DNA of 64,000 nt from Tubiluchus corallicola. Its lineage: Eukaryota; Animalia; Priapulida. The stretch covers positions 124,001-188,000 of the forward strand of contig JAQGDQ010000436.1 of the NCBI GenBank assembly GCA_030141605.1. Direction: 5' to 3'. Shown here one piece after another: positions 14,675 through 63,822 of this stretch (positions are counted from its first letter, which is position 1; every line of letters starts with the position of its first letter). A program made the translations under genes and the position numbers. Under the pieces are notes generated by a model, which saw nothing but the letters and a program-made list of their open reading frames with translations, was not told the DNA's origin and did not search any database.

Positions 14675-14724
14675 TGATGCGCATATTTGTAATTTTTAGT
14701 AATCTTGTACAGTTTCAGATTTAC

Positions 14725-20535: not shown

Positions 20536-20949
20536 CTTAGGTGCAAACAAGTCAACAAGTTAAGTTGGTACGCTTGACTGACTTCGAAAGGGATATTGAA
20601 GGTAGGAGACAAAAGTTTCAACTGAGCAAGAATTAGAATGTTTATGATGAATGTCAGCCATCACTAACAATAGACAATGCTGCACCGTAACTATGACAAC
20701 ATGACGTAATAATGTCTCTCGGTAACTTATTAGAATTATTATATGTACAGCAAAAACATTTCTTGAATATTCGGAAAAACTAAACCTAAACTATGCTATA
20801 ATTGCAAAATGTTCAGGTTTACTTTCTTAAAATAACATTCGTTCATTTTTATCAGCGGCAATGATTTCTATTGAGTTTCTTTAAAAATTGAAAGTTTGGG
20901 ATCGAGATTTTGGTGTCTGGATCATAATGACTGCAATCCATAATGACGA

Positions 20950-38200: not shown

Positions 38201-40942
38201 CCGGCTATGATCATATTCAGTCTCGAGCTTCGACTTTTCACATTTCCTACTTTTCAGTTAAATTCGGTTTTCAAATTTGAATAATTGTGGTTCAGATTCT
38301 TTCGTGTATGTTGTTTGTTTGAAAAAATTGCACTCTGCTAAAATTATTGATTTTTTGTACGCTGACACTTGCAGGTGATATCCTGGAAGCAGAAGTTACC
38401 CCTGCAGACGATAATGAGAATGTTGCAAGTTTTAGTGCCACAAGTTGAGAAGATTTGCATTGATAAGTGAGTTTAATTTCTGCATTTAAGCAAATTAATA
38501 GTGGTGTTCTTTGTGTTTTTTACATATCACCCTAAGTAAGGCCAGAGACCAGTTTAAGTAGGGGCTACTGTAGAAAAGGGAAGGCATGAGTGCGTGTCCT
38601 GAGAAATGGAATCCTTTAATTTACTAGCAATGAGAAGTATCTACTAATGTTCTTCATGTTATAGTTAACAGCTTCCTGATAAAGAATTCCACACATAAGC
38701 AGCTCAAGTGAAGAAAATGGATTTATTAGCAGCTGTTTTCCATCTCGAAGTGTCCAGGGCAAGAATATAAGAAGCAGCACTAAAACGAGTTCACTACACC
38801 TTGCAAAACTGTTCGTCATTCCGCAATGTTACAAGACTTGTTTGAGTCTGACTGGTTGTGGTCGTTGTTGCGCAATTTCCTGTTGTGTGGTTCCTAATTA
38901 GTTCCATATGTAGGATATTTATGAAAATATACTAGAAATTTTGATAATTGCTAATTAGTAAATAAGTTCTTATAGTTAAAACAAATTATTCGATAAAACA
39001 TTTATGCTACGTTATAATGTTCACTGGAAAATTAAATTTGCTCTTACGCCTGGTTTACGCTGAGACATTTGACATCGGACAAAATCGATTTTTTGAGGGC
39101 TAAATGTCTAGAGAAAATGCAAAAAGTTTCTGATTTTGTCCATTATGACGAACTGAAACAGCAAACGAGGAATTGTGAAATTGCAACTCTGACTGTAGAA
39201 TGTTTGATTGTACAGGGGATTGACAGATGAAAGCGAGATATTGAAATTTCTACAACACGGCACTCTAGTCGGACTGCTTCCTGTACCACATCCGATACTA
39301 ATCCGGAAGTACCAAGCTAACCAGGGAACCAGCATGTGGTTCCGTACATACATGTGGGGAGTCATCTACCTGCGGTGAGTTGTTTCCACATAGAGATTAG
39401 TGAGGTTGTAAAAAAAGTTGTTTTTTAATGCATGTGTCACATACGGAACGCCAACAGTGTTGTGAGTATAATAACACGATTTGATAACACAATCGACTGT
39501 CCTAGCAGCTGTCTTCAGCCATTTTGACGTAAAAATAACAAAATGGAGTGGAGCGAATGCTTACAAAGCACATAAGTAAACAAACTGACAAAAAGTTACA
39601 CAGTGAATCCAAAGATGAAAAATACCCACCGTGAACGATGATGATCAAATAGCAATCACAGAGCAATAAATAGTCAGAAAATCACCTATGACTTACAAAA
39701 CAAGAATGTGCTAGAAACAGGAATTTTCCTACTCGACAAGATGTATTGGGAATGACCAGGAACTGGTACCTTATTAATGATACCGCTCTAAGACTGTAAG
39801 ATGAGCCACTGTACCATCAGAGGTGTCCTGGCCATGCTTGGGTATATGTTTACTGGATGAAACAGAAAAAATGTGCCGTAGTTTAGAGTGCAAAATGATT
39901 AGAAGCAAGCATTTTGCATTAACATTTCAAAGCGTGACACTACAATACATTAACTTTTGGCTGTGGAAGTTAACACTTCATACTTTTAGGAGTTTTTAAG
40001 TTACGGCTGAAAAACTTCTGCACGTTAAAAAATTAAACGTTTGAACAGTAGCTAATCATTAATTGAAAAATGGCCATATTTCACCGTCGACATGCTTAAA
40101 ACATTCAGTAGTCAATACATGACAACTGAACAACACAAAAATCAACCAGCTTGCATCTTGGTCATCACCAGAGAAAACAAAGTACTGGTAAAAATTTGTT
40201 GTCAAAAGAAAATGGAATTTAATCCTACAAACTAGGGATTGCTGGAATTCCTAACAACAGCTGAAAAGAGTTGTTTGATGTGAAGGACCCAAGGCAAAAA
40301 TTATTGAGTAGTGGAACCAAGTACCACTTAAAGAAGTGAGAAACTGTGTAAACTGTTAGAAGAAACGCCGTGAAAATGCACTTGCTAGTTTGCTTTGGGG
40401 GACACGTAGAGCGTTTGCGGTAAATTTTAGCAGTAGCCATCCATGAAAATTACTCCTGCATTTTACTCTTTTGACTTGTTGTTTTAAGACTTCTGTATCT
40501 GTGGAAAAATCCAAAGAATGACTTAAAATTTTTTGGAGTTTACACACAAGCGTCTGTAACGCCACTGTGATAATTTTCAAGAGTTTCCATTATTTTCTTC
40601 CTGTATTATCATGATCTTGGCACATTTTTTTGGACATCTCGTATATCGTACCTGTATGAGACAAACACTAAAATGATCAGAATCAGTATGTTGAATGAAA
40701 CCACTCAGAGAGAGTAATGAACCTGCTTACATAGAGCACAAGTGCTTACCGCTTGGTCATGAACACATTTTAATTTTTTTATACATTTAGTTTAACTTTT
40801 TTCGTTAGTTTATTTTGCTGTCTAGGGTCGTCTAAAATCAATGGTATTTCATGCCATTCGTTTCATTTGTGTTTATAGGAATGTAGACCCACCGATATGG
40901 TATGACACAGACGTGAAATTATTCGAGATTCAGCGAATCTAA
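23227..40942 (+). CDS. HID1: HID1 (Golgi/dense-core vesicle protein, dymeclin-related), 18 coding exons, about 825 aa
   Basis: Exons 23227-23292, 24121-24334, 24950-25065, 25412-25450, 25721-25774, 26059-26224, 26528-26772, 27389-27580, 29053-29143, 32307-32458, 33522-33600, 34209-34373, 35002-35238, 36692-36918, 37406-37525, 38375-38466, 39216-39374, 40879-40942; GT-AG, phases consistent (2478 nt). Recognised HID1 peptides: MGNTDTKLNFRKAVIQLTTKTQ, ENRHALPLFTSLLN, NYLSRIHREEDF, LLLLSGERNFGVRLNKPY, WFRTYMWGVIYLRNVDPPIWYDTDVKLFEIQRI. Confidence 0.97.
23485..23950 (-). mobile_element. LINE 3' UTR fragment related to the element at 1-2657
   Basis: Reverse complement of 23548-23591 matches the terminal stem-loop at 2527-2571; flanked by T-rich (minus strand) UTR-like sequence. 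Confidence 0.65.
24386..24831. mobile_element. pogo/Tigger-like MITE in HID1 intron 2
   Basis: TA-CAGTAAGTCCTTGCTTAACGAT ... ATCGTTAAGCGAAGACTTGCTG-TA; internal CACTTAACG repeats. Confidence 0.75.
29575..31135 (-). mobile_element. 5'-truncated CR1/L2-group LINE 3' end with (GTAACT)n-like tail, interrupted by a pogo-type element
   Basis: Minus-strand peptide NLELVIAHCRTTNYGLNSFRYTGAKLWNNLPDEY at about 31130-31020; AATAAA then a hexamer tail seen on plus as (TTACAG)n at 29578-29680. Confidence 0.72.
29857..30592 (-). mobile_element. Internally deleted pogo/Tigger-type DNA transposon retaining the transposase N-terminus
   Basis: 26-bp TIR CAGTGGACTCTCGTTATAAGAATCAC (1 mismatch), TA TSD; minus-strand ATG at 30384 gives MASKRKSRSVSEKVKIIAAYD, resembling the CENP-B/psq HTH start. 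Confidence 0.85.
34466..34635. repeat. 35-bp minisatellite, about 5 copies
   Basis: TGTTTCCTATGTGTTACTCATTGTTTGTGTACTAT repeated. Confidence 0.9.
35853..36120. repeat. About 131-bp tandem duplication
   Basis: AGTTACTGTCTAGTGTGGATG...CTCTCTAGTCTGAACACGCTTGCAAG occurs twice in tandem with few substitutions. Confidence 0.85.
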
Positions 40943-43900: not shown

Positions 43901-44468
43901 ACTGCAAATTCTGTATTGCGTAGTCTTTTTTGAATCCTGATGTTTAGAAGGTAAAAGCTAAGTTGCTTCATCTAAGCATATCTAGAAGACAATTACTTCT
44001 GTTAGTTCAATAACTGATTCTAGGGGCTTTGAAGTTGTGGTATTGATCTCAGGAACTAATTTTGCTTTGTTAAATTCATGGTGTATTCACCCTCAGATCA
44101 CTTTGCACTGGTGAGTAGGGATAAAAAATATCCAATACTGTGACTCCAATATTGGCCACATGCTGTGGTTCGTGGTCATCTTGTGCCCATAGATGTTACT
44201 GAGTTACTGGTTTTTCTACTCACGTATAACCAGTAATTAGGGAAGCCCTGTAGATTCAAGGGTTGTAATGAGGTGAATACCTGTAAGTTTAATTGCAAGT
44301 GTTAGCAAGTCATGTGACACAGCGGCCAGGCAGTGCAGACATTTGAGTTTGTGGCCAGTGATGGAGTGACAAACAGTTTGTGTTTCATTGATGTAGTCTC
44401 GTTTGCGAGCGTACCTGATTGCATACACCTGAGGTAAAGAGTCACACTTCTTGCCTGTCATCTAAACA

Positions 44469-47449
44469 ATGCCAAATCGTGCACCAATGAAAAGTGGTAA
44501 GTTGTTATGATTATTTTTTCATTGCTGAAATTTTTTACGTATCAATTTGAAAATGCCTACAAAAAGATAACTAAATAAAAGTTATGATGTGAAACATGCA
44601 TGTATCATCGCAGTCAGGAAGCAGAAGAAAGGACTTTGTTAGGTGCCTGATGCACAGTGGAATTCCAAATAGTCAAAGAAAAATGATTAAAAAGCAATGG
44701 ATTATTGGACAATTTAAAAAAAGAAATCAGTATAGCAAACTGGGATAGAAATGATGGGTAACAGAATGTTTAAGAAAGGAAGTTTGGGAAAATTCTACTT
44801 AATGAGTTAAGAGTTTACATCAGTATGTGACAACACAACTGTTTAATGTTAATCACATTGTCCATTGTATTGATACTTTGTCGTTAATCATCCAGTTGCA
44901 GACAAACCACTCAAATCACACGTTTCTCCTAGTCCTTTAATTGCTTACGTATCCTGCTAGCCTATGGTCTGCCATTTTTTAGATATTTTGTATAGTGAGT
45001 TGTTAACAATATTAGTTGTTTGGCACAAATTTTGTTGTAAAATTGAATTGTTGTCAATTTTTAGAGGTCTTCGCATCCAGCTCGAATCTTTCAACATAAT
45101 AAGTAGATTTTTCTCAAATGTTACACAAAGGTCCTTGCACAAGTACAACAGTTTATACAATTTTTTGCTAAAGAACTAGGCTTCGTGTAATATATGCTCA
45201 TAACAGATTCAAATAGGTGTAATAATAGGGCTATTCTATTGCTTTAGGTACTTATCAACTCAATCAGCTTGGTAGAAGGTTCAAAAACGGAAGACCATTA
45301 CCGACGGAGCTGCGTCGCGAGATTATTGCCATGTTCCTGCGTGGCGTGAAACCTTGCGTAATAAGCCGTCATCTCCGAGTATCACATGGTTGTGTGAGCA
45401 AGATACTTAGCAAGCACCAGGTATGTTCCATTAGACTGCGCGGAAAAGCATTCAGAAATTGGCAATTATGAAATTACTGATGCATAGGTCACTGCATTTG
45501 CAAAAGGACAATGTGAGAGAGTCTCACTTGCAAAATATGAATTCCTCAAATTTGGGCGTCATTTGTCCCGGCTTGTACTTGGATAGTGATATTCTATATT
45601 GACCAGGGGACGGTTTCGCAAAGCCGTCACTAAGTTAACGATGTCGTTATTACATTCAATTCACTATTAATAATGATGTCGTTAAGTCAGTGACGGCTTT
45701 GTGAAACTGGACCCAGGGTATCTTTATTGAAATGAACCCTTACTTTGTCGGGGGTTGCGTTCTCTAAACTTAACTTTTGTTCCATTATATGCATGTTTGT
45801 TCAGATAAACTTCTTCAAGAATTATTATGATCCTTTTTTAGTTTAGAGACTTACTTCCAGGAAAGCCTAATAAGCAACTCCTGCTTCGTATGAAATGAAT
45901 ATTAGTAAAAATATGTGAGCGCATTAAAACAATGGGAGAAGTAGTATAATGCTTTTGATGTATTGTGTTAATTTAGTTTGACTGTGACTGTGAGAAAATA
46001 TTTTTTTTTGCTTAAAGTTACAAATGTTGTTGAGAAATGAATACGGGCTACATAATTCTTACACTTTTTTATTGTAGGAGTGTAGTAGCAGTAATCAGTC
46101 GCTGGTTAACAGTGATGATTGCGTTACAACCCTGGCATCATCCACAGAAAGTGGCAATCTCGTTGGGTCAGTGACTGGAACTTATCAAGGTTTCCTTTCT
46201 GCTTCTGTTATAAAGCAGAACTTTATACTTGATTATCACTCTTTATGATTTTGTGCATAATTCTGAGTGACACATGTTCTGCTGTAGTCTGAAGCTTAGC
46301 CTCACATCAGTGCAGTTTCGTTTGACCTGGGTGCTCTGTTGACTTTTAAAATTTCGCTGAACAGCTATATGATTTTATTTTAAAATGCCCTATTTTTCAA
46401 AATCTTAGCTTAACTGTCATATTACAAAATTGTTACGTTTGATTCAGTTTTGTAAAGTTTTATCAAATTGACGCATTGCGAGTCGTTATGGGTGTAACTA
46501 TAGTTAAGCGTGTGTGCTATAACTTCTAGTATGTGTCTGTACGGCATTTTATCGCTTTCTACATAGCTAATAGACACCTCATTTATGCCATCTGTAGGTG
46601 TAAATCACATATTGCGCAACAGAGAAAAACTTTTTTTGGAAAACAAACATAGACGAAAACGACTATCATTCACATTGCAACAGCTGAGCAGTTTAGAAGC
46701 AGCATTCAAACAAACGCCGTATCCGGACATCGCTATAAGAGAAGCACTTTCTCAACACCTGAATCTTACCGATACGAGAGTTCAGGTATTATGGTATAAT
46801 TAGCAGTAAATTACTACTGCAGTTTAGCATGTGGTGTTATAATCCTGTTGCAAGCTGTCTGTTGAAAGCATGATCTAGCTTTCTCGTACAGTTGACAGAA
46901 TTAGTTCCCAAAATTCACAAGTTAGTAAGCTAGAAGCAATTTCACGAATTTTGTTCTTGAGCCAATGTATAAAGCTAAGTTTCTGAGACAGTCAGTTTGT
47001 CAACAGATAAACAAATATTGGTTACAACATTAGATCAATTGCTGTTGTCTATCTGTGTACTAATTAGAGGTAGTAATGCTTAACTTTGGCAGTTTGGTTC
47101 TGAGATATACCACTTGCACGGTGTATACAAGTGGTTTTTTTAGAAATGGAGAGTGCATTGTGCAGACTGAATATCATTTCTTTTTATGGACAAGCTGAAG
47201 ACTGAAGGGGGGTTACAGTTGTTGGGAGGTTTAGAAAGTTAGACTGCATATCAAATTTTAAGCGCATGCCTGAATTCCACGAGTGTATTTCAATAAAGTT
47301 AAGACATTTATTTTTAGATCTGGTTTAGTAATAGGAGAGCAAAGTGGCGAAAGCAAATGAGAGTGACATCTGTTATGGGAATGGAAAATTACACAGGAAC
47401 CTCTGATTCTCCTCTCATAGCAGGTATGCTGAAATCAGTGCTTTTATAA
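44469..47449 (+). CDS. Divergent Pax-family transcription factor: PAI subdomain only plus paired-type (S50) homeodomain, about 205-210 aa
   Basis: Exons 44469-44496, 45248-45420 ([58 protein letters not shown]), 46078-46189 (boundaries less certain), 46598-46785 ([45 protein letters not shown]), 47318-47423 ([13 protein letters not shown]); typical PRD-class intron between VQ and IWF. 3' end uncertain: read-through TAA at 47449 or donor at 47423. Confidence 0.85.
45603..45717. mobile_element. Short palindromic MITE in Pax intron 2
   Basis: Arms GGTTTCGCAAAGCCGTCACTAAGTTAACGATGTCGTTATTA and TAATAATGATGTCGTTAAGTCAGTGACGGCTTTGTGAAACT are near reverse complements. Confidence 0.7.
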
Positions 47450-47610
47450 AGTTACTATAACTTAAACCGAAATTTGGTATTAATTGACAGTTTAAAGCTT
47501 GTTATTATGAGATGTCATGAAAGTAGTGCTAATATAGTTCTGTTTTTATGCTTTTGTACATGTAGCACTCTTACAGTGTTAATTTAGTGTCTAAAGCTTT
47601 TCTCTAATGG

Positions 47611-47765
47611 ATAATAATAATAATCTTTATTTAAAGTCGGCTTTTGGGTCAACAATTAACATTAGCTCAAAGAGCTATTATCGCCGACACTATATAACAA
47701 TCTACAACTACATAACAGAGACTATTATTACCCCACTTTTACCCTAAATACCATGCAAGGCAATT
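47611..47765 (-). mobile_element. 3' fragment of the SINE found at 59315-59642
   Basis: Reverse complement matches 59440-59590 (GTCGGCGATAATAGCTCTTTGAGCTAATGTTAATTGTTGACCC..AAAAGCCGAC...AATAAAGATTATTATT). Confidence 0.85.
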
Positions 47766-47794
47766 AACGTTATTAGCATATTTATGTACAACAC

Positions 47795-48277
47795 CAGGGA
47801 TGAGAATTTTCCGCGGATACGCGGAATTCTGAGTTTTTGGAAGACCAGTAGTGCCATTTTTGTAAATTGCGTAAATTCGTTGAGAAAATTTTTTATGGAC
47901 CCGGTACATTATTTCACAAGTTGACCGCTAGGTTGCAGGCCGTCACTTTGTTTACATCACGTACATCAGTGTAACCACGTGTATATCTCTATGTATAAAA
48001 ATATAGAATCAATTGTGCGGAGTTATTTGAGTCAATTACAGACAGTTTTTATATACTTTTGCATAGGGGAGCGGCCAGTACTTAGACATTTTTGAGACAA
48101 TTAGGTATCATGTATCCTTGATAGTTGAGTATTTTAAATTATGCATGAAACAAGGTAATTGATATTTTAAGTCCACTTAGAGGTTCTCTATGGTCACAAA
48201 ATTGCAATTTGTTGCTGCCTACGCAGCCTCCAAATGCCTGTTTCAGAGTTTTTTGCAATTTGTCATTCTCATCCCTG
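47795..48277. mobile_element. MITE with 6-bp TSD (hAT6-like), copy 1
   Basis: TIR CAGGGATGAGAA / TTCTCATCCCTG; TSD CAACAC; highly similar to 59969-60462. Confidence 0.88.
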
Positions 48278-48284
48278 CAACACT

Positions 48285-48600
48285 GAAACATGGGGTTTAA
48301 CGACTTTACTCAATAAGGACAGATTGCCGCATTTCATAGAAGTTTTCTATGGAAAGTTTGAAAGACAAGATGACCATATGTAGTCAAAAATAAAGATTTG
48401 TTCACTAGAACGAAAGAGTTCAAAAGTCAAGCACTGAAGATTAAGAGGGCTAGGTAAGATCAACTTTAACCATATTTAGCTTTAGGAGTGGAAGAACTTG
48501 TGCTGTTTGCTGCAGATAGGTGCAGTGCTGTAATGAATGTTATAGCCTTGATGTCTGCAGTAAGTGAGACTTTCAAGAAGAAGAAGAAGAAGAAGAAGAA
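48285..48600 (+). mobile_element. Decayed RTE LINE 3' fragment with (AAG)n tail
   Basis: Similar to 11095-11525 (GGGGTTTAACG, CATTTCATAGAAGT, CACTAGAACGAAAGA, TTTAGGAGT.GAAGAACT) and ends in (AAG)n. Confidence 0.7.
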
Positions 48601-48764
48601 GAGTATTGTAATATATATTACAATATGTAATATAGAAAGATATACCATACCGTTGAACCCTATGATTTCAAAATGATTCTTCAATTTAATGATAATGAAA
48701 AAATATCAAATAAATGATAAGAGCAGAATAATTAGATAACTTTATTTGGTTTGTTTCTATACAG

Positions 48765-51700
48765 GTGCTTGAAGAATTGTTTGCGTAAAGTTAATCCGGA
48801 CGAGACACTAGCGCTAAGAGCCGTGTGCACAACTTGCAAGAACGACAGCGAACCATTTCACTTCATTTGGACCGTTTATTCGGTAACTGAAAGTAAAGAT
48901 GTCTCCGATGATTTTTCTACGAGAGTCAGCAGCGATACGGACATCTTCATCGTCGGAAGGAATGTTTTAATCGAAGATTTTGTTTACAAGGTTAAAGCTG
49001 AAGGTAATAAAGTTTTGTTCACACACCTGTTGTCGTGACGCTAAAGTTGTCGCTGGGTTGTTTTGGGGAGAGCCAACAACCGACATTGGCAGGTTTGTCA
49101 GACTGTTTTTGAAGTTGCGATGTTCGTGTTAAACAGATGAAATCAATGGATGAAAACATGGTTTAACTTTGCGATCTGTGTTTTACTCAAAATCATAGTC
49201 TCATAGTCAATCCACATTGGTTTAACTTTGCAATCTGCATTTTACTCGAAATCATAGTCTCATAGTCAATCCACATTGGTTTAACTTTGCTATCTGTATT
49301 TTACACAAAATCATAATCTCATAGTCAATCCACATATACACAAAAATGGTAAACAAAATCAACAGTAGTAAACAAGGTCAAAGTAAATACATCAGCCAAT
49401 GTATCATGGCATCTAAGTCAAAACATTGTTAGAACCGCACAACTGTTTAAGCCTATTTCTAATCTAAATGTCTGTTTGCTTTCTAATCTTGCTACCAAGT
49501 GTGCAAAACTACTACATTCACAGAGAAGCCAAGTGACCCAGTTCCATACAAACATATAGCAGTAGCAAGTACATTTATTGGAAACTTCAAAGTGTACAAA
49601 CAGATGTCAGCACTGACTTAGTGGTAATGAAAAACAAAAGTTTAAAACTACAAATCAAAATTAATAATAAACTGTAAATTAAATGCTCGCACTGCGACAC
49701 TTGTGCCCAATAATTCTCGGTGATTTTCACTGTCTATGCTGAGAATAAAAGCAAGAGATTGTCTTCTCCAATTATTCAGTTTAAGAGTAAATAAAATATG
49801 CAATTTTTTTCAACACTGACGATGTAGCTATAGTTATACTAACTGTAATAATCTGTTAATAATGATGATAATATTTATTGATCTTTTCAGCGCTACACTA
49901 CTTCTAAGTATGGCTGACAAGTAGAATTAATTAATGTATAAAAATACAAAGCAAAATATAAAGGCACAACAGTGAATTACATGTTTTAATGTAGAAAAAC
50001 GTTCACTGAGCCACAAGTCAAAACAGTGATAATACAGTCAACCTCGGGTATAAGATACTCGCTTGTAAGGGACCACCAACACCGGTCCTGATTTTTAGTA
50101 ACGTTTTTCCTATTTAAAAATCTTCGTATATAAGATATTTGGATATACGGGACTTATGGTTATAAGGGACGATATCTTCAGGTCCCACATAATAGAAACC
50201 CAGGTAAATTACCTCGCATATAAAGGACCCTATGATCAAAGCGAAATTGATCGATTTGTAACCTAAATTTTTCGCAAACTCGGTCTTCGAACGGCTCGGT
50301 TTCCGCAGTCACATACATCTCGCATCACTGAAGGAGCTTCCTACGTACCGTTTGCACTGAATGTGTAGCAATAATCCGTAAAAATATGGGTAAAAGTACA
50401 GAAAAGTACAGGTCTAGATACACCCTCGGTCTGACTCAACTTCGGCTATAAGGGACTTCGGCTATAAGGGACGATTTTTTCCGGTTTGGAAGTGTCCCTT
50501 ATATCGGAGGTTGACTAAGTGAAATTCGTTAAAATTAGGCTGTTTAGGTGAAATAGATATTAAAACGGCAGGCATGTCGTTAATTGAGTTTTAAAAGTCG
50601 CTGCATTACTACTACTGGAATTTATTCCATGAGGCTGGAGTAGCTACGGACAAATCTCTGTTGCTTTAACGCTTCATTGTGTTTACTGAGCAGGAAAAAA
50701 CTTTGTATTTGGACCAGCCCATCTAAGACTACAGTGTGAGACCAGCCCATCTAAGACTACAATGTGAGACCAGCCCATCTAAGACTACAATGTGAGACCA
50801 GCCCATCTAAGACTACAATGTGAGGCCAGCCCATCTAAGACTACAATGGGGGATATATGTGCTAATCATTTCTAAGATAAACAAGTGTTTCGTGATTGTT
50901 GTTAATTGAAGTTTATTTAATTATTTTATTTTAATGCATAAAGTGTGGTATTGAAATAATCTAGATTTGACGACACAGAATGTGATTTTTCTGTCCATAC
51001 ATAAATTTCATTTTTTATTTTTGTACATACAAGCACAAAAGTGGCATTTGTTTGATTCATTTTTTATTTTTTTATTTTATTTATTTCATTTTATTTTACT
51101 TTATTCACACCCAATAGTAAAAAGGGTGTATAATAATAGCAAATATTGTTTTATTTATTTTGTTTTATTTTACTTTATTCACACCCAATAGTAAAAAGGG
51201 TGTATAATAAAAGCAAATATTGTTTTATTTATTTTGTTTTATTTTACTTTATTCACACCCAATAGTAAAAAGGGTGTATAATAAAAGCAAATATTGTTTT
51301 ATTTATTTTGTTTTATTTTACTTTATTCACACCCAATAGTAAAAAGGGTGTATAATAAAAGCAAACATTGTTTTATTTATTTTGTTTTATTTTACTTTAT
51401 TCACACCCAATAGTAAAAAGGGTGTATAATAAAAGCAAACATTGTTTTATTTATTTTGTTTTAATTTACTTTATTCACACCCAATAGTAAAAAGGGTCTA
51501 TAATAAAAGCAAATATTGTTTTATTTATTTTGTTTTATTTTACTTTATTCACACCCAATAGCAAAAAGGGTGTATAATAAAACCAATATTGTTTTATCTA
51601 TTTATATTTTACTTTATTCACACCCAATAGTAAAAAGGGTGTATAATAAAAGCAAACATTGTTTTATTTATTTTGTTTTAATTTACTTTATTCACACCCA

Positions 51701-54700
51701 ATAGTAAAAAGGGTCTATAATAAAAGCAAATATTGTTTTATTTATTTTGTTTTAATTTACTTTATTCACACCCAATAGTAAAAAGGGTGTATAATAAAAG
51801 CAAACATTGTTTTATTTATTTTGTTTTAATTTACTTTATTCACACCCAATAGTAAAAAGGGTGTATAATAAAAGCAAACATTGTTTTATTTATTTTGTTT
51901 TAATTTACTTTATTCACACCCAATAGTAAAAAGGGTCTATAATAAAAGCAAATATTGTTTTATTTATTTTGTTTTATTTTACTTTATTCACACCCAATAG
52001 CAAAAAGGGTGTATAATAAAACCAATATAATTAGAACACATTGGCAAAAAGCGTTCAAATAGAATGTTTGAAAGAGAACTGTAGAGACACGAAGAGATGA
52101 ACTGCTTGAACGTGTTCATTATGTATAATAAATTTATGTAAATTTTCTTTATCTAAGCAGCTTTTAAATAATTTAATATTTTGTGCAGTTACGATGGACG
52201 GTCTAGACCTGAATGTTTTAGTATTAATAAATTTCCAGGAACAAGACTTGATGTGAGTGGAGTGTTTACAGTTTACAAGTTTACTGTAAATAATGCTCCC
52301 ATTAGAGGCACCTGTGATGTAAGTCCATCCAAAGGTGAGTTCTCATGTACGACATTCACAGTATACTAGTAAATATTAACTGTTTGTGGTCTGTTATGTA
52401 TGTATATTGTGTGTGTGTGTGTGTGTGTGCGTGTATGTGTGTGTGTGTGTGTGCGCGAGCATGTGTGTGTGTGTGCGCGTGAGCATTGTGTGCGTTTGTG
52501 TGTATGTGCGCGCGTGCGTGTGTGTGTGTGTGCGCATTAGCATTGTGTGTGTGACCGTGCGATGGGGGTGCGGGAGCAATGGTTTTGGTGGGTGTGGGTG
52601 TGTTGCATATCAGAATTGTCCATAAGTCGGCAATTAAGCTTTTCTAGTTATTCAAATATCCTGAATCTCCATTTCATGAGGATCATTTTGATACCAAGTT
52701 CATTACTCTATGTTATTTCTAAGCTGAGACAATCCAGTTGAGATGCAGGCTGCACACTGGAAAACATAATCTTGAGAAAATCACTGTTAAAGTCAGCCAT
52801 TGTTTTTTGTCGTGTTTCTACAAAACTTAGCAACCGCACAAATGTTGGTTGCTATGGACTTTGCAAGAACACGTTGAAGTTATGTTTAAATCCAACAGCT
52901 GACCTTTCCTGACGAAAATATGGGCTTTGCAACAGAAAAAATGCAAAACAAAATGACTGCTTCCATGAGCTACTTACGGAAGGTTGAAAATAAAAGTTTT
53001 TTACAATTGCTGTACTTGTTTCTAGCCATAAAAGTGGGTAAGGAGTTATAAAATAAAATTTTTAGTGTTTGAGCACTTTCTTGATAATCTGATGCTAGAA
53101 TAAAAAAGTCCAATATATTTAGCTTTTGTTTTCATAAAAAATAAAAAATTAACATTAGACCAAGTTTTTGGTGGATTCTACTTGGAAGTATCATAATGTA
53201 GTTTTAACTATACCGACTTATGGACAGTTTTGGTTTTGCAAGCACATACACACGTACATATATATATATTTTATTTACAAATTCAACCACAACATATAAA
53301 CTAATTTGTCCAGTTATAGGCAAGATGCACCGTTACGTGAAATATAAAATGAGTGCGATATTAATTACAATCGAAAATATTTTCAAGAGTTGAGTTACTT
53401 ATAAATTAGTATTTCCGCAAGATTTATTAAGTTTATACCAAAATATTTGGCTTTATTTACATGTAAAGTGAGTCAGCTGATTTATTTACTTTGTTACGAA
53501 TTTGGTCAGTTGAGAATTGAATTTGGTGCAAAAGAAAGTTGAACATGTTTTACGAATTTGGTCAGTTGAGAATTGAATTTGGTGCAAAAGAGAGTTGAAC
53601 ATGTTTTACGAATTTGGTCATTTGAGAATTGAATTTGGTGCAAAAGAGAGTTGAACATGTTTTACGAATTTGGTCAGTTGAGAATTGAATTTGGTGCAAA
53701 AGAAAGTTGAACATGTTTTACGAATTTGGTCAGTTGAGAATTGAATTTGGTGCAAAAGAAAGTTGAACATGTTTTACGAATTTGGTCAGTTGAGAATTGA
53801 ATTTGGTGCAAAAGAAAGTTGAACATGTTTTACGAATTTGGTCAGTTGAGAATTGAATTTGGTGCAAAAGAGAGTTGAACATGTCTTACTAATTTGGTCA
53901 GTTGAGAATTGAATTTGGTGCAAAAGAGAGTTGAACATGTTTTACGAATTTGGTCAGTTGAGAATTGAATTTAGTGCAAAAGAGAGTTGAACATGTTTTA
54001 CGAATTTGGTCAGTTGAGAATTGAATTTGGTGCAAAAGAGAGTTGAACATGTTTTACGAATTTGGTCAGTTGAGAATTGAATTTGGTGCAAAAGAGAGTT
54101 GAACATGTTTTACGAATTTGGTCAGTTGAGAATTGAATTTGGTGCAAAAGAGAGTTGAACATGTTTTACGAATTTGGTCAGTTGAGAATTGAATTTGGTG
54201 CAAAAGAGAGTTGAACGTGTTTTACGAATTTGGTCAGTTGAGAATTGAATTTAGTGCAAAAGAGAGTTGAACATGTTTTACGAATTTGGTGTCAGTTGAG
54301 AATTGAATTTGGTGCAAAAGAGAGTTGAACATGTTTTACGAATTTGGTCAGTTGAGAATTGAATTTGGTGCAAAAGAGAGTTGAACATGTTTTACGAATT
54401 TGGTCAGTTGAGAATTGAATTTGGTGCAAAAGAGAGTTGAGCATGTTTTACGAATTTGGTCAGTTGAGAATTGAATTTGGTGCAAAAGAGAGTTGAACAT
54501 GTTTTACGAATTTGGTCAGTTGAGAATTGAATTTTTGTGCAAAAGAGAGTTGAACATGTTTTACGAATTTGGTCAGTTGAGAATTGAATTTGGTGCAAAA
54601 GAGAGTTGAACATGTTTTACGAATTTGGTCAGTTGAGAATTGAATTTGGTGCAAAAGAGAGTTGAACATGTCTTACGAATTTGGTCAGTTGAGAATTGAA

Positions 54701-57700
54701 TTTGGTGCAAAAGAGATTAAACATGTTTTACGAATTTGGTCAGTTGAGAATTGAATTTGGTGCAAAAGAGAGTTGAACATGTTTTACAAATTTGGTCAGT
54801 TGAGAATTGAATTTGGTGCAAAAGAGAGTTGAACATGTTGCTACAAAAACCCTTGAAGTATTTCAAGCAGAAATTGTTTTGCCTTGTATTCTTCGCTGGC
54901 ATTTATGTACATTGGTTGTTTGTGTCAAGGAATTGCTCTGCAAACCGAATTCAAAATAAGATGTGAAAGATTTGAAGACGAAGATGCACCGCTGACGTAC
55001 ACGTTTTACTACAAAACCGGAGCCGAAAAATTGGCAAACATCAGCGACACCGGAAGCATTAAAGGTAACGAACATTATTGAGTTTACCTGAGATTATTAT
55101 GAATAACTAATTCTTTTGCAATCCACTTACCATTCCTTGTGTTAATTCAATTATTTATTATATATTTATTCAACATATATTATATTATTATATTTATTTT
55201 ATCTATTTATTACATTTATATTATATCATATCATATTATATTACATTACATTACATTACATTACATTACATTACATTACATTACATTACATTACATTACA
55301 TTACATTACATTACATTACATTACACCACACCACACCACACCACACCACACCACACCACACTACACTATATATATACTCATACATATTTTGAACTCCTTT
55401 CTATTTCTCTTTTTCTCTATCTTTGTTTGTTATTTTATCTTAACTATCTATCTATCTTTTATATCATCTCATAGATGAGCTTCATTCATTACACCATTCC
55501 ATTTTAAGCACTTATGTTTTCTTTATCACGCGATTCACTTTAAATATTCAGATTATTTCCATTACTTTTTTTTCTTTCACAGTGTGGGACAATCTAACAA
55601 GCCCTGCTTTTTCATTGCCCGCAACACATTTACATTTATATATGTAGCAAACCTAAACTATGGTATATCTAAACTAGTTATGTGCTCAATGTAAACTGTA
55701 TATGAATTTACTAAGCAACATACAACAGCGATAATTCTCTTGTTTATCTTTCAACCCCACTGTGTTTTGAGAGTCAAGTTAGTATATTTGTAATGATGCT
55801 GTACATAACATTGTTTAGACACCAGTATTAAAGGAAGTAGCGATATCACTATCTTTGTTTACCATAGGTCGACCTACGTCTAAAGACAGTTTAAATCATT
55901 TGTTCCAAAATTTGCTTGCTATTATGTATCTTACTCTTTGTTATTCATCGAATTATTGATAACTTTTTGTTTCTTTTAATGTATTAATTGTGTATTTGTG
56001 TTGATATGAAATAAATAAACAAAATAAACAATAATATCTTTATTTTGCAGGAATGTTGCTGCACTACAGTATAAACCCTATTTTACCTCCGTGTATGCTT
56101 CCTCCTGGGTTACAAGAGAGAAATTATAGTGCACAAATTTTCGTCATTGTCTCTGATACTTTCAAAAGTGCTACTTTAACAGAGTTGACAATAAAGGTAC
56201 TGTATCGTAAGTGTATGATAAAGGTACTGTATCGTAAGTGTATGATAAAGGTACTGTATCGTAAGTGTATGATAAAGGTACTGTATCGTAAGTGTACGAT
56301 AAAGGTACTGTATCGTAAGTGTATGATAAAGGACTGTATCGTAAGTGTACGATAAAGGTACTGTATCGTAAGTGTATGATAAAGGTACTGTATTGTAAGT
56401 GTATGATAAAGGTACTGTATCGTAAGTGTATGATAAAGGTACTGTATCATAAGTGCATGATAAAGGTACTGTATCGTAAGTGTATGATAAAGGTACTGTA
56501 TCGTAAGTGTATGATAAAGGTACTGTATCGTAAGTGTATGATAAAGGTACTGTTTCGTAAGTGTATGATAAAGGTACTGTATCGTAAGTGTGTGATAAAG
56601 GTACTGTATCGTAAGTGTATGATAAAGGTACTGTATCGTAAGTGTATGACAAATGTACTGTATCGTAAGTGTATGATAAAGGTACTGTATCGTAAGTGTG
56701 TGATAAAGGTACTGTATCGTAAGTGTATGATAAAGGTACTGTATCGTAAGTGTATGACAAATGTACTGTATCGTAAGTGTATGATAAACGTACTGTATCG
56801 TAAGTGTATGACAAAGGTACTGTATCGTAAGTGTATGATAAAGGTACTGTATCGTAAGTGCATGATAAAGGTACTGTATCGTAAATGCATGATAAAGGTA
56901 CTGTATCGTAAGTGTATTAGCTTGTAATTTTTTCATACACGTATTTTCTACATCAAATTTGATTTAGAACATTTTCGATATGGCATAAAATTCGATTCAC
57001 AGTATAGACTAGCGTGTCGATTTATCGATAGCACAGATACAGTAAGACTTGATTTATGCAAAAACGAGTTATGTTTAAAAAAATGGTTTTTGCCACCATA
57101 ATGGTTAGTCATTGAACAGCATTTTTACTGCTGGATTTTTTTAATAAATGATTTTTTAATTTCTTTTATTCAGAATGTTTATTATTATTGTCAACATGAA
57201 TTATTTTCGATCACATAAGTACGGTAAAGTTACATACAAATAACTGATTTAATTGAAAGAAATTCTTAGACTACAGTCAACCTCGGGTACTCGCTTATAA
57301 GGGACATTCTCTTGTAAGCGATCACTAACACCGGTCCGGATATTTCGTAAAGTTTTTCCTTATAAAAATCTTAGTATGTAAGGTGCTCGGATATAAGGGA
57401 CTTTCGATTATAAGGGACAATATCTTCAAGTCCCGTGCAACAGAAACCCAAGTAAATTACCTCTCAAGTAAGGGACTCTATGATCAAAGCGAAATTGATC
57501 GATTTTTAACCCCATTTTTTCGCAAACTCGGCCTTTGAACAGCTCGGTTTCCACAGTCACATACATCTCTCATTACTGAAGGAGCTTCCTACATACCGTT
57601 TGCACTGAATGTGTCGCAATAATCCATAAAAATATGGGTAAAAGTGCAGAAATATACAGGTCATACGTGGGTTTCCCAAGTAGGACTCGTGGTACTTGAC

Positions 57701-59569: not shown

Positions 59570-59643
<74 letters not shown>

Positions 59644-61950
59644 GCTGCTATACATGAGTAAAAATAATCTCTAATGCGAATCTCAGAAAAAAACAAAGAC
59701 ATTTTTTGAATTTTTAGGTTTATCCGGTAGGTCATAAACCAGACGCAGCAAACAAAACTTCAGACTTTGACCAAGCTGTCCAAGTTGCCAACACATTAAA
59801 AAGTCTAACAGTTTCTAGTCACGCTGCGGGACCCAGTAAGTTAGAAACGTTTTTGAACGCTGGCGATGTCCAAGGTGAGTCTGACTTTTTAGAACAAGTT
59901 TTTCTCTGTAGAACAAAAGTTTGTCTTCATTGGTTTTTTTTGCACTGATATTTCTTTGTCTCCGTTATCAGGGGTGAGAATTTTCCGCGAATACGCGGAA
60001 TTCCGAGTTTTTGGAAGACCAGTAGTGCCATTTTTGTAAATCGCGTAAATTCGTTGAGAAAATTTTTACGAACCCAGTACATTATTTCACAAGCTGACCG
60101 CTAGTTGGCAGGCCGTCACTTTGTTTACATCACGTACATCAGTGTAACCACGTGTATATCTCTATGTATAAAAATATAGAATCAATTGTGGGGAGTTATT
60201 TGAGTCAATTGCAGACAATTTTGCATAGAAGTGGCCAGTACTTAGGCGTTTTTGAGACAATTAGGTATCATGTATCCTTGATAGTTGGGTAATTAAATTA
60301 TGCATTAAATAAGGTAATTGATATTTTAAGTCCACTTGGAGGCTCTCTGTGGTCACACAATTGCAATTTGCTGCTGCCTACGCAGCCCCCAAACCCCCGG
60401 CCTGTTTCTTGCAAGTTGCGAGTTTCTTGCGAGTTTTTTGCAATTTGTCATTCTCATCCCTGCGTTATGCATTTTTTATGTTTCGTTTCTTTCGACTTTT
60501 TGTTAAGACACATTTTCCTTATTCCACATAGGACTTGCAATAATCAGTTCAAATTTTACTTAATTTTAATTTTAACTTTTCTTCTATATGAAGTGAAATT
60601 AAATGTATACGTGACAGTCATATTTGATGTTGTTGTTCAGTCACTTTGTTATGATTGAGTTTAGACACAGAGAAGTATGAATAGGAACCAAAAATCTATA
60701 ATTAATATTTGCACTGCACACAACAGAAAAGTGTTTATTGAACTACAGAAAACACGAGTAGCAAAACTGCTGCACTGAACATTGAGCAAAAACTAGAAAA
60801 GCAAAAAACAGTCAGTAAAACCTGTTTCACAGCCGGTATACAGGTATAGAACTTGACCTATGCAGAGTTGCACAGGCTTCACAACAGCCATTAATTTTAG
60901 ATAGGGAGAGGACCAGTGTGTATGTAGTCACTGGACCATACAATTATACTGAAGGTAAGTCAGCTGGTAGAATGTAACAAGATTAGCACATAGATGGCAG
61001 CACCTAACTACAATTTACATTTCCAACTTCCATAGTATAAATGTAATTAATTTACAGACTTTTGTTGACTTTCAGACACACATGTAAACTTGCCAGCATA
61101 CAGTAACTACCGGGTGGGTTACTTAGTTTATAGAGTTCGCTCTATAAGTCAAAAAAAGATTGTTGAAGCACTTGGCAGACTAACTGTTTATATCGCACGG
61201 TAACTAGATAGCGCCATTTTTCACCAAAATGAGAGCGCCCGAGCGTGAAGAGATCGCGATTTTTAATTGCAATTATTAATTACACGAGGCGCTTATCATA
61301 ATTTCATTGCTGAAACTTTCTAACATTTTTCTCAAATATTAGAATAAGCTCAGCTTCCCAAGAGACTTTGCTTTTGTTTTAATTTCGATGTCTATAGTTA
61401 AAAATAAATCATTTGTCACCAATATAAATAATTTGAAGTGATTAAAGACCACTATCTCTCACAGTCATTAGGCAACAGAGTTACATAAGTATTGTGATAT
61501 ACAGTTGCTTGTAAATACAGATTTTATTTTATGTTATTATGTTATGTTTTTGTATGTTATTATATAACATATTAACTGTACTTAATTAACTTGCAAATTA
61601 ATTCAGCAACTTGATAATAAAAAGCTCAGGAGAGGATGTTATGTTAACCCCATTCATTTTCAATCATAATGTTTTCTGTAATGAAGAAACAGTGTTTTTT
61701 TTACAATTTGATGTGTGCAGTCTTTTGAAAATTAAAAACTTTATGCAGTGTTTTTTATTTCGAAATAAGTCTGATTTTTATTTAAAATTTACAAAAAATT
61801 TATAAGCATTTGTTTGCCTTTTTAGCTATTGCAAAGCTTGTGGGAACTGCTAATGCTTTGCTGAATGATAACAGAACGAAGCATACTGAACCAACAGACA
61901 ATGAAAAAGAAAAGAAGGAACGTAAAGCTCTGTTAAATGTAAAAGCAGAG
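48765..61950 (+). CDS. Polycystin-1-like (PKD1L/REJ family) gene, internal exons covering part of the REJ domain; incomplete at both ends in this window
   Basis: Exons 48765-49003 (CLKNCLRKVNPDETLALRAVCTTC...FIWTVY), 52239-52334 (FTVNNAPIRGTCDVSPSKG), 54930-55064 (IALQTEFKIRCERFEDEDAPLTYTFYY), 56051-56196 (LPPGLQERNYSAQIFVIVSDTF), 59718-59874, 61826-61950; all GT-AG, phases compatible, no stops. Motif order matches the REJ module as recalled. Confidence 0.82.
49159..49335. repeat. 59-bp tandem repeat, 3 copies
   Basis: TGGTTTAACTTTGC.ATCTG..TTTTAC.C.AAATCATA.TCTCATAGTCAATCCACAT x3. Confidence 0.9.
50035..50516. mobile_element. pogo/Tigger-like MITE, copy 1
   Basis: TA-CAGTCAACCTCGGGTATAAG ... 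CTTATATCGGAGGTTGACT; internal TATAAGGGAC repeats; second, truncated copy at 57274-57662. Confidence 0.82.
50712..50848. repeat. 28-bp minisatellite, 5 copies
   Basis: GACCAGCCCATCTAAGACTACAATGTGA repeated. Confidence 0.92.
51070..52028. repeat. 74-bp minisatellite, about 13 copies
   Basis: TTATTCACACCCAATAGTAAAAAGGGTGTATAATAAAAGCAAA.ATTGTTTTATTTATTTTG... with 74-nt period. Confidence 0.95.
52405..52555. repeat. Degenerate (TG)n microsatellite
   Basis: Direct reading. Confidence 0.9.
53494..54838. repeat. 56-bp minisatellite, about 24 nearly identical copies
   Basis: TTACGAATTTGGTCAGTTGAGAATTGAATTTGGTGCAAAAGAGAGTTGAACATGTT repeated. Confidence 0.97.
55241..55368. repeat. Compound pentanucleotide microsatellite (TTACA)n(CCACA)n
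   Basis: Direct reading. Confidence 0.92.
56190..56915. repeat. 27-bp minisatellite, about 27 copies, beginning at an exon 3' boundary
   Basis: ATAAAGGTACTGTATCGTAAGTGTATG repeated; the first unit spans the donor of exon 56051-56196. Confidence 0.97.
57274..57662. mobile_element. pogo/Tigger-like MITE, copy 2, right end missing
   Basis: Colinear with 50035-50413, then replaced by the 29-bp array. Confidence 0.8.
57663..58195. repeat. 29-bp GC-rich minisatellite, about 18 copies
   Basis: GTACGTGGGCTTCCCAAGTAGGACGTGTC with variants. Confidence 0.93.
59315..59642 (+). mobile_element. tRNA-derived SINE with (TTA)n tail
   Basis: tRNA-like head with B box (GGAGGTCGTGAGTTCGAT), central ATACCAAAGACTTTAAAATGTTACCTGCTGTTGCCCTGCCTGGCGC, AATAAA and a long (TTA)n tail; partial second copy at 47611-47765. 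Confidence 0.8.
59969..60462. mobile_element. MITE with 6-bp TSD (hAT6-like), copy 2
   Basis: TIR CAGGGGTGAGAA / TTCTCATCCCTG; perfect TSD CGTTAT. Confidence 0.88.
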
Positions 61951-63119: not shown

Positions 63120-63822
63120 ATGTGGGTGTTTGGGTGTTGCTGTATGGGTGTTTGCATGCTGCTGTATGGGTGTTTGTGTTTGCTGTATGGGTGTTTGTGT
63201 TTGCTGTATGGGTGTTTCGGTTTGCCGCATGGGTGTTTGGGTTTGCTGTATAGGTGTTTGGGTTTGCTGTACGGATGTTGCTGTATGGGTGTTTGCATGC
63301 TGCTGTATGGGTGTTTGTGTTTGCTGTATAGGTGTTTCGGTTTGCCGCATGGGTGTTTGCATGCTGCTGTATGGGTGTTTGCGTTTGCTGTATAGGTGTT
63401 TCGGTTTGCCGCATGGGTGTTTGCGTTTGCTGTATGGGTGTTTGCGTTTGCTGTATGGGTGTTTGGGTTTGCTGTATGGATGTTGCTGTATGGATGTTTG
63501 TATGCTGCTGTATGGGTGTTTGCGTTTGCTGTATGGGTGTTTGGGTTTGCTGTATGGATGCTGCTGTATGGGTGTTTGTATGCTGCTGTATGGGTGTTTG
63601 CATGCTGCTGTATGGGTGTTTGTGTTTGCTGTATGGGTGTTTGTGTTTGCTGTATGGGTGTTTGCGTTTGCTGTATAGGTGTTTCGGTTTTCCGCATGGG
63701 TGTTTCGGTTTTCCGCATGGGTGTTTGCGTTTGCTGTATGGGTGTTTGGGTTTGCTGTATAGGTGTTTGGGTTTGCTGTATGGATGTTGCTGTATGAGTG
63801 TTTGGGTTTGCTGTATGAGTGT
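63120..63822. repeat. Complex GT-rich minisatellite (21-24 bp variant units with higher-order repeats)
   Basis: TGCTGTATGGGTGTTTG(T/C/G)GTT and variants; gives spurious ORFs in all six frames. Confidence 0.93.

What the first reader, a model, noticed from the sequence alone, without database searches (positions are those of the whole stretch)
44318..52334. Pax/homeobox gene entangled with a polycystin-1-like REJ gene: nested gene, chimeric transcript or in-frame fusion
Seen: the last Pax exon ends in a good phase-1 donor (GCAG|GTATG, 47423). Only about 1.3 kb, mostly transposon fragments, separates it from a REJ-domain exon at 48765 on the same strand. That exon begins mid-domain (phase 2), and no signal-peptide or other N-terminal polycystin exons are evident after HID1. 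Splicing 47423 to 48765 reads G-A-stop (TGA 48770-48772), so the REJ exons would become 3' UTR. Splicing 47423 to 52239 (phase 1 to phase 1) is in frame and would give a PAI-homeodomain-REJ fusion. All six REJ-region exons remain open and phase-compatible. Established: PKD1-family proteins are large membrane receptors with REJ then GAIN/GPS and transmembrane segments; I know of no Pax-polycystin fusion. Inference: a rearrangement has coupled a transcription factor to a truncated polycystin, or the Pax gene sits inside a polycystin intron.
Basis: partly seen in the sequence, partly recalled or inferred. Interest (0 to 1): 0.8.

Follow-up and report, generated by a model that had tools for sequence, protein, structure and literature searches.

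The report
Pax gene nested inside polycystin-like gene
In an invertebrate genome, a five-exon Pax3/7-like gene that lacks half of its paired DNA-binding domain lies just in front of the exons of a polycystin-1-like receptor gene and likely sits inside one of its introns on the same strand, so the two are likely separate products of one locus rather than a fused protein; no RNA has been seen to confirm this.

Summary
The coordinates hold. Pax exons (PAI Pfam E 2e-20, homeodomain E 7e-13) precede six open REJ exons; 47423>48765 stops after two codons and 47423>52239 is open. The fusion is weak: 4 of 6 REJ acceptors are phase 1, so in-frame joining is cheap; it skips the exon encoding most of an FN3-like domain; and the Pax frame closes by itself at TAA 47447 (210 aa).

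Better reading: nesting. Only 2 of 101 candidate donors upstream of 48765 are both strong and open in the REJ frame (44110, 44433). Both lie upstream of the Pax ATG (44469) and chain in frame into 48765. The 44433 exon folds as three beta-strands with Ig-like atlas leads, but has no Pfam match and only weak acceptors, and no host start or signal peptide was found. The Pax first donor (44496) lies 63 nt after 44433, so one exon would serve both genes through two donors, as with ChAT/VAChT. The Pax protein keeps PAI and homeodomain but lacks RED. No transcript was available. Nesting 0.5, tandem neighbours 0.27, misjoin 0.1, fusion 0.08.

The parts
23227..40942 (+). HID1 gene, upstream neighbour; stop TAA at 40940-40942
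   Evidence: Pfam Hid1 on three exons; spliced frame open
43986..44110 (+). Y0: candidate upstream host exon (acceptor 43986 or 44053, strong phase-2 donor 44110); uncertain
   Evidence: Donor 9.3 bits; 41 open codons; joins 44323 then 48765 in frame; 2 of 2 listed X1 differences synonymous, but coding score -14; no Pfam match
44323..44433 (+). X0: candidate upstream REJ exon (phase-2 donor 44433), likely also 5' UTR of the Pax message
   Evidence: Donor 6.0 bits, acceptors 0.1 or less, coding score +6.1 in frame vs -15.9/-8.9; three strands, pLDDT 70; Ig/cadherin-like atlas leads below 0.9; no Pfam match
44469..44496 (+). Pax first coding stretch: ATG 44469 (second in-frame ATG 44487), phase-1 donor 44496
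   Evidence: Best of 12 phase-1 donors with an in-frame Met feeding 45248: 9.9 bits, next 6.3; frame open
45248..45420 (+). Pax exon 2: PAI subdomain
   Evidence: Pfam PAX profile 4-58 of 125, E 1.8e-20; best PDB match Drosophila Paired 68.3 bits, then Pax8 62.7, Pax5 61.6, Pax6 52.9
46078..46189 (+). Pax exon 3: Ser/Thr-rich 37-aa stretch in place of RED; strong acceptor, poor donor
   Evidence: No Pfam match, no PDB match at E 10; acceptor 10.0, donor -3.0 bits; needed for the frame
46598..46785 (+). Pax exon 4: short linker and homeodomain residues 1-46
   Evidence: Pfam Homeodomain E 7.2e-13; PRD-class PDB matches
47318..47449 (+). Pax exon 5: homeodomain helix 3 with Ser50; internal donor 47423; read-through stop TAA 47447-47449
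   Evidence: donor 4.5 bits
47611..48454 (.). Repeat fragments between Pax and the first sure REJ exon; AATAAA at 48389 (and at 48709, beyond this stretch)
   Evidence: Copies at 59437-59583, 59969-60463, 11084-11267; depth above 17,000 in X1; signals
48765..49003 (+). R1: REJ exon, phase 2 to phase 1, most of one FN3-like domain
   Evidence: Pfam REJ 210-289, E 8.7e-7; acceptor 11.7 bits; low-confidence model (pLDDT 54) aligns to FN3-type domains, best Z 7.6, rmsd 2.5, 77 residues; 2 of 2 listed exonic X1 differences synonymous
52239..52334 (+). R2: REJ exon (phase 1)
   Evidence: Pfam REJ 302-324, E 0.062
54930..55064 (+). R3: REJ exon (phase 1)
   Evidence: Pfam REJ 327-359, E 9.8e-7
56051..56196 (+). 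R4: REJ exon (phase 1 to 0)
   Evidence: Pfam REJ 365-411, E 1.7e-4
59718..59874 (+). R5: exon after the REJ match, open and phase-compatible
   Evidence: Splice scores 8.8/9.3; no Pfam match
61826..61950 (+). R6: last host exon found in the window; the gene runs on beyond it
   Evidence: Splice scores 7.5/6.5; frame open; no Pfam match

Best explanation
A five-exon Pax3/7-like gene likely sits inside the 4.3-kb intron (44434-48764) of a polycystin-1-like REJ gene on the same strand, and the two would be alternative products of one locus rather than one fused protein. Shown by sequence: an open 210-aa Pax frame (PAI, no RED, Ser50 homeodomain) from ATG 44469 to TAA 47447; six open REJ exons from 48765; an open join 44433>48765. 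Inferred: the 44323-44433 exon is the REJ exon that precedes 48765, and a Pax copy landed just behind its donor. Because the Pax ATG is only 36 nt past that donor, the Pax message would use this exon as 5' UTR. A transcript crossing it would then choose donor 44496 (stronger, nearer acceptor; gives Pax and ends before 48765) or donor 44433 (skips all Pax exons; gives the REJ message). Pax transcripts that run on into 48765 would give a 204-aa Pax with a stop upstream of five junctions and would likely be degraded. The host's 5' half was not found, so the host is likely N-terminally shortened or decaying at its 5' end. The Pax protein would bind DNA through PAI and homeodomain only.
For: Of 101 GT sites scoring 2.5 bits or more between the HID1 stop and 48765, 8 have 30 or more open codons in the frame that feeds 48765. 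Only 2 of those 8 (44110, 44433) score within the range of the 23 training donors, both lie upstream of the Pax ATG, and they chain in frame 44110>44323..44433>48765. X0 has frame-specific coding signal like the true REJ exons (+6.1 vs -15.9/-8.9) and 46% GC. Its peptide folds alone as a hairpin plus a third strand after a proline (pLDDT 70), the layout expected for the end of one FN3-like domain and the start of the next (REJ as FN3 repeats: PMC3677617). Atlas recognition is 2323, with 9 of the 10 best family hits in one family or clan, Ig/cadherin-like by name (lead only). X1 contigs differ at 1 of 168 nt over 44243-44410, against 5 of 183 and 6 of 186 in two Pax-intron pieces, and both listed differences in Y0 and both in R1 are synonymous. 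The strand-and-cysteine pattern across the X0-R1 join resembles PKD1-like proteins as I recall them (recalled, from no call). Pax has its own stop and two AATAAA signals before 48765.
Against: X0 has no Pfam REJ match even at E 10. All four X0 acceptors score 0.1 bits or less against a training minimum of 3.0. X0's coding score is reached by 10% of 381 intron windows and its frame asymmetry by 6% of 536. X0 and Y0+X0 show no significant likeness to the downstream REJ repeat or to homologue P0005. Y0's coding score is -14. The X0>R1 frame has no Met until residue 192, and no convincing exon or signal peptide was found in 40943-43985. All atlas scores are below 0.9, and the fold had no shuffled control. 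X1 carries C>A at position -3 of the 48765 acceptor. Multi-exon same-strand nesting is selected against in Drosophila (PMC3814207). For the Pax side: the 46189 donor is poor (-3.0 bits) and 3 of 4 listed exonic X1 differences change the residue, so the Pax copy may be under weak constraint.
Confidence: 0.5

Rival explanations
1. Tandem neighbours. The Pax gene is a free-standing gene whose GC-rich first exon merely looks coding, and the REJ gene behind it is a 5'-truncated duplicate that starts at or near 48765 and is either a young pseudogene or starts from an unrecognised exon.
For: No Pfam match, weak acceptors and borderline coding statistics for X0; no signal-peptide exon found; partial REJ domains occur in real family members such as SpREJ8, SpREJ9 and hPKD1L2 (PMC1934368); 60% repeat DNA at the Pax-REJ boundary could mark a rearrangement.
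Against: R1 keeps a very strong phase-2 acceptor (11.7 bits, top 0.2% of AG sites) and all six exons are open, which asks for an upstream phase-2 donor; the only strong open candidates lie upstream of Pax; X0 folds as beta-strands.
Confidence: 0.27
2. Assembly artefact. A misjoin or haplotype switch in the repeat block at 47.6-48.5 kb brings a Pax gene next to the middle of an unrelated REJ gene.
For: High-copy repeats fill most of the gap, and one of them recurs in a REJ intron at 59969-60463.
Against: A phase-compatible, beta-strand-like open exon upstream of Pax (X0) fits R1; if it is real, an artefact would need two breaks. X1 contigs match single-copy sequence on both sides of the block with few differences (48253-48567, 48670-49081, 47015-47199).
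Confidence: 0.1
3. True fusion. The main product splices 47423>52239 and makes a PAI-homeodomain protein joined to the C-terminal part of a polycystin-1-like receptor.
For: The join is open for 422 aa to the end of the window; Pax supplies a start codon that the REJ exons otherwise lack; the Pax tail after the homeodomain is short, with no EH1-like or OAR-like motif found in the Pax exons by a recalled pattern search.
Against: 4 of 6 REJ acceptors are phase 1, so any phase-1 donor joins in frame. The splice must skip the second-strongest host acceptor (48765, 11.7 bits) and R1, which holds most of an FN3-like domain and shows only synonymous differences in X1. The donor is below the training range. 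A nuclear DNA-binding head with no signal peptide on what is normally an ectodomain is topologically awkward (established family knowledge, inference).
Confidence: 0.08

Closest known systems
Cholinergic gene locus ChAT/VAChT (Ixodes; PMC7524744, passages read)
   Same: Two unrelated proteins from one strand of one locus; one gene inside an intron of the other; an exon shared by both messages.
   Different: There the shared exon is exon 1 and the nested ORF is a single exon, shown by RT-PCR. Here the nested gene has four more exons, the shared exon would be coding for the host and UTR for the guest through two donors 63 nt apart, the two proteins have no known common pathway, and nothing is shown on RNA.
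Same-strand nested genes (Drosophila survey PMC3814207; OMP in CAPN5, PMC6549253; passages read)
   Same: A gene inside an intron of another in the same orientation.
   Different: In Drosophila 71% of nested genes are on the opposite strand, 73% of same-strand ones are single-exon, and multi-exon ones have a median of one intron. This guest has four introns and overlaps a host exon.
Pax3/7 (Paired, Gooseberry) family
   Same: PAI closest to Drosophila Paired among four solved paired domains; PRD-class homeodomain with Ser50; Paired and Pax3 are the best single-homeodomain PDB matches after DUX4.
   Different: RED replaced by a Ser/Thr-rich exon with no Pfam or PDB match. The mirror image of Eyegone (RED plus homeodomain) and unlike nematode NPAX (PAI only), as described in PMC4901127 (passages); nearest described case is a predicted Vcar-Gsb isoform lacking 43 aa of RED (PMC12486386, passages).
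Polycystin-1/REJ family (PKD1, PKD1L1-3, PKDREJ, SpREJ1-10; PMC1934368 part 1 of 4 read)
   Same: Four exons match Pfam REJ in order; R1 models as an FN3-like sandwich; partial REJ domains are known in SpREJ8, SpREJ9 and hPKD1L2.
   Different: Profile positions 1-209, a signal peptide and N-terminal domains were not found; GPS, PLAT and membrane segments would lie beyond the window and could not be checked.

Membership tests
Pax (PRD class) | PAI subdomain of the paired domain | tested here: met
   Pfam PAX profile 4-58, E 1.8e-20; PDB
Pax (PRD class) | RED subdomain (complete 128-aa paired domain) | tested here: not met
   Exon 46078-46189 has no Pfam or PDB match; six-frame search with recalled RED motifs found no hidden RED exon on the + strand of 40943-48765
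Pax (PRD class) | PRD-class homeodomain with Ser50 | tested here: met
   Pfam Homeodomain E 7.2e-13; helix 3 reads Trp-Phe-Ser-Asn
Pax3/7 family | Groups with Pax3/7 in a tree of paired domains and homeodomains | tested here: inconclusive
   Only best-match ranks against solved structures; no Pax sequences could be fetched for a tree
Pax3/7 family | EH1/octapeptide between paired domain and homeodomain; OAR motif in Pax7 and some invertebrates | tested here: inconclusive
   A recalled pattern found nothing in the Pax exons and one intronic near-match at 49739; both motifs are optional in the family
Polycystin-1/REJ family | REJ domain (PF02010) | tested here: met
   Two exons above the curated cut-off and two below, in order, covering profile 210-411 of 452; first half not found
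Polycystin-1/REJ family | Signal peptide and N-terminal ectodomain | tested here: inconclusive
   No convincing exon in 40943-43985 by a low-power scan; a distant or unusual first exon is not excluded
Polycystin-1/REJ family | GAIN/GPS, PLAT and transmembrane segments after REJ | not testable with these tools
   The gene runs past the window end and no genome is held
Same-strand nested gene with shared exon (ChAT/VAChT type) | Host exons on both sides of the guest, spliced across it | tested here: inconclusive
   Join open and phase-compatible; identity of X0 as a REJ exon rests on leads and failed sequence tests
Same-strand nested gene with shared exon (ChAT/VAChT type) | Both messages contain the shared exon | not testable with these tools
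   Needs transcript reads

The most novel reading that the evidence does not exclude
The locus is a splice switch that makes, besides or instead of a free Pax protein, a PAI-homeodomain transcription factor fused in frame (47423>52239) to the C-terminal REJ and presumably GAIN/GPS and membrane part of a polycystin-1-like receptor: a membrane-tethered Pax that GPS self-cleavage could release. My searches found no such fusion in print.
Probability: 0.08. Interest if true: 0.75.

Novelty: new variant of a known kind. Interest (0 to 1): 0.33.

Why it matters
If the nested reading holds, one exon is coding for a receptor and 5' UTR for a transcription factor, and two donors 63 nt apart choose between them. 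That is a compact natural test of how a multi-exon gene survives inside a same-strand host, an arrangement selected against in Drosophila. The guest is also an uncommon Pax layout (PAI plus homeodomain, no RED), the mirror of Eyegone, useful for asking what RED adds. It is most likely a lineage-specific arrangement in an unstudied invertebrate, with signs of weak constraint on the Pax copy and of 5' loss in the host, so its general reach is modest. The fusion would matter much more but is unlikely.

Tried and rejected
Whole genome: none held, so paralogues, the host's 3' half and synteny could not be examined.

RNA: no RNA holder listed. X1 behaves as DNA contigs of another individual or haplotype; X2 laid only 10 short pieces and no splice joint. 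No listed X1 contig spans the 47.6-48.5 kb repeat block, which proves nothing either way. Only 39100-50700 and 44040-47480 were laid, so the 52239 acceptor was never covered; difference tables were cut (40 of 243 rows shown) and omit differences near contig ends.

Homologue searches: homeodomain exon, R1 and the R1+P0005 alignment against longer proteins gave nothing. The representative search gave 5 hits, of which 4 are repeats or prokaryote-like Ig arrays and were dropped; only P0005, a single-exon fragment, was kept. Metagenome locus L001 is a bacterial off-frame chance match and was dropped. So no full-length REJ protein was available to test the X0-R1 join.

PDB sequence searches with R1, X0, R3 and the RED-position exon found nothing relevant. 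Foldseek with the R1 and X0 models had no match at E 0.001. The R1 VIA match (Z 7.6) is below 8 and may be only a common arrangement. Atlas on R1: first hit an unrelated bacterial family at 0.90, REJ clusters at 0.89. Complex prediction of R1, R2 and X0 fragments gave no verdict (score 0.02).

Internal-repeat test of X0 or Y0+X0 against R1-R6 and P0005 was negative. The codon model has low power: only 2 of the 10 Pax and REJ test exons beat 95% of the null. Acceptor 52189 was rejected for R2: it gives stops from both R1 and Pax. A HID1-REJ read-through (39374>48765) is also open but was set aside as one more one-in-three phase match. Rfam found nothing in 38000-64000. The bacterial promoter scan is irrelevant here.

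Literature: ten searches; some searches were empty; one search listed one paper, on PAX expression in kidney cysts (listing only). PMC2747821 was not held. Supplements of PMC1934368, which may hold REJ alignments bearing on X0, could not be read. PMC5318412 passages added only domain layouts.
Full report
Setting. The window is AT-rich (30-40% GC), intron-rich animal DNA. No whole genome is held. An earlier, unreviewed note on another piece of the same genome calls the animal an invertebrate that is likely not an arthropod; I did not test that. On the + strand lie a DEAD-box helicase gene, HID1 (Pfam Hid1; open frame to a stop at 40942), then the region in question.

The Pax gene. Splice-site matrices trained on 24 acceptors and 23 donors of HID1 and the helicase gene pick out five coding exons: 44469-44496, 45248-45420, 46078-46189, 46598-46785 and 47318 onward. 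The first donor, 44496, is the best of 12 phase-1 donors with an in-frame Met that could feed 45248 (9.9 bits, next 6.3). The spliced frame is open and, read through the 47423 donor, ends at TAA 47447-47449 after 210 aa. Exon 2 is a PAI subdomain (Pfam PAX 4-58 of 125, E 1.8e-20), closest to Drosophila Paired among four solved paired domains. Exons 4-5 give a PRD-class homeodomain with Ser50. The exon where RED should be is Ser/Thr-rich and matches nothing in Pfam or PDB, and no hidden RED exon turned up. So this is a Pax3/7-like protein with PAI and homeodomain but no RED; membership of Pax3/7 proper was not settled by a tree. Two signs of weak constraint: the 46189 donor needed for the frame scores -3.0 bits, and 3 of 4 listed exonic differences in DNA run X1 change the residue (small numbers, contig depth 5-9).

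The REJ gene. Six exons from 48765 to 61950 splice without a stop. Four match Pfam REJ in order from profile position 210 to 411. A single-exon homologue, P0005, aligns over the same stretch at about 33% identity. A low-confidence model of R1 (pLDDT 54) aligns over 77 of 79 residues to FN3-type domains (best Z 7.6, rmsd 2.5), in line with REJ being built of FN3-like domains (PMC3677617, passages and section 3.1). Both listed exonic X1 differences in R1 are synonymous, though X1 also changes position -3 of its acceptor. GPS, PLAT and membrane exons would lie beyond the window.

Testing the fusion. But 4 of 6 REJ acceptors are phase 1, and the Pax first donor also joins 52239 in frame, so the property is cheap. 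The fusion needs a donor weaker than all 23 training donors, must skip an 11.7-bit acceptor, drops most of one FN3-like domain, and puts a DNA-binding head without a signal peptide on an ectodomain. I give it 0.08.

Testing nesting. R1 has a strong phase-2 acceptor and no start codon, so it needs an upstream phase-2 donor. Of 101 GT sites scoring 2.5 or more between the HID1 stop and R1, 8 have at least 30 open codons in the right frame, and only 44110 and 44433 among them score in the training range. Both are upstream of the Pax ATG, and 44110>44323..44433>48765 is open throughout. X0 (44323-44433) has 46% GC and frame-specific coding signal, folds alone as a hairpin plus a third strand (pLDDT 70, no shuffled control), draws Ig/cadherin-like atlas leads below 0.9, and is nearly invariant in X1 (1 of 168 nt). 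The pattern across the join resembles PKD1-like proteins as I recall them; that comes from no call. Against this, X0 has no Pfam match, its four possible acceptors score 0.1 or less, its coding statistics are borderline (10% of 381 and 6% of 536 null windows), internal-repeat tests failed, and no host start or signal peptide was found upstream. Y0 is weaker still: strong donor and two synonymous differences, but a poor coding score.

Mechanism. If X0 is a host exon, the Pax ATG is 36 nt and the Pax first donor 63 nt behind its donor, so the Pax message must begin in or upstream of X0 (inference). One exon would then end at either of two donors: 44496 leads into the Pax exons and to a stop and polyadenylation before 48765 (AATAAA at 48389 and 48709); 44433 skips all of Pax and leads to R1. 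The stronger, nearer path favours Pax. Run-on Pax messages that splice to 48765 would stop upstream of five junctions and likely be degraded (inference). The weak X0 acceptor and missing first half of REJ suggest the host has lost or is losing its 5' end.

Comparison with what is known. The layout works like the cholinergic locus, where ChAT and VAChT share exon 1 and VAChT lies in the first ChAT intron (PMC7524744, passages), but here the guest has four introns and the shared exon would be coding for only one partner. Same-strand nested genes are a minority and mostly single-exon in Drosophila (PMC3814207, passages); OMP in CAPN5 is a single-exon case (PMC6549253, passages). Loss of Pax subdomains is well known: Eyegone lost PAI, NPAX kept only PAI (PMC4901127, passages), and a predicted butterfly Gsb isoform lacks part of RED (PMC12486386, passages). 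[quoted passage not shown] Two searches found no Pax-polycystin fusion or nesting (open-access library only), and the scan's own notes held none.

Verdict. The likeliest reading is a same-strand nested Pax gene overlapping a host exon (0.5), then tandem neighbours with a truncated REJ gene (0.27), misjoin (0.1) and fusion (0.08). It is a new variant of a known kind, unproven without transcripts. Interest 0.33.

Noticed in passing
window 56191-56917: The donor of REJ exon R4 (56196) is the first unit of a 27-bp tandem array of 27 copies. The units repeat the donor in frame and the frame stays open to 56355, so later donors could add 9-residue units to the protein.
   Followed up: no
window 19825-20559 (- strand): 244-codon open frame with a hydrophobic N-terminus and a weak LRR_8 match (E 0.0059); probably the first exon of a secreted or surface leucine-rich-repeat protein, head to head with HID1.
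   Followed up: partly
window 36692-38466: HID1 carries extra acidic, low-complexity exons (36692-36918, 37406-37525, 38375-38418); one path through them keeps the frame, with no Pfam match for the two ORFs tested.
   Followed up: partly
window 5312-14700: Intact multi-exon DEAD-box helicase gene, DDX47-like by recall; used only for training splice and codon models.
   Followed up: partly
window 1-2154: 717-codon open frame running off the window start, with reverse-transcriptase-like motifs of a LINE element by recall.
   Followed up: no
window 45603-45717: Short inverted repeat (50-nt arms, 80% complementary) of MITE type in the Pax intron after the PAI exon; repeated elsewhere in the genome by X1 depth.
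   Followed up: no
window 51075-52025, 53494-54839, 57660-58180, 63123-63788: REJ introns are filled with minisatellites of 74, 56, 29 and 21 bp, more than the HID1 introns.
   Followed up: no
window 49739: A short stretch in the intron after R1 resembles the OAR motif of Pax7 as I recall it, six codons after a stop and with no acceptor seen; probably chance.
   Followed up: partly
window 44312, 44361, 44392: Three upstream ATGs in the presumed Pax 5' UTR are each followed by a stop within two codons.
   Followed up: no
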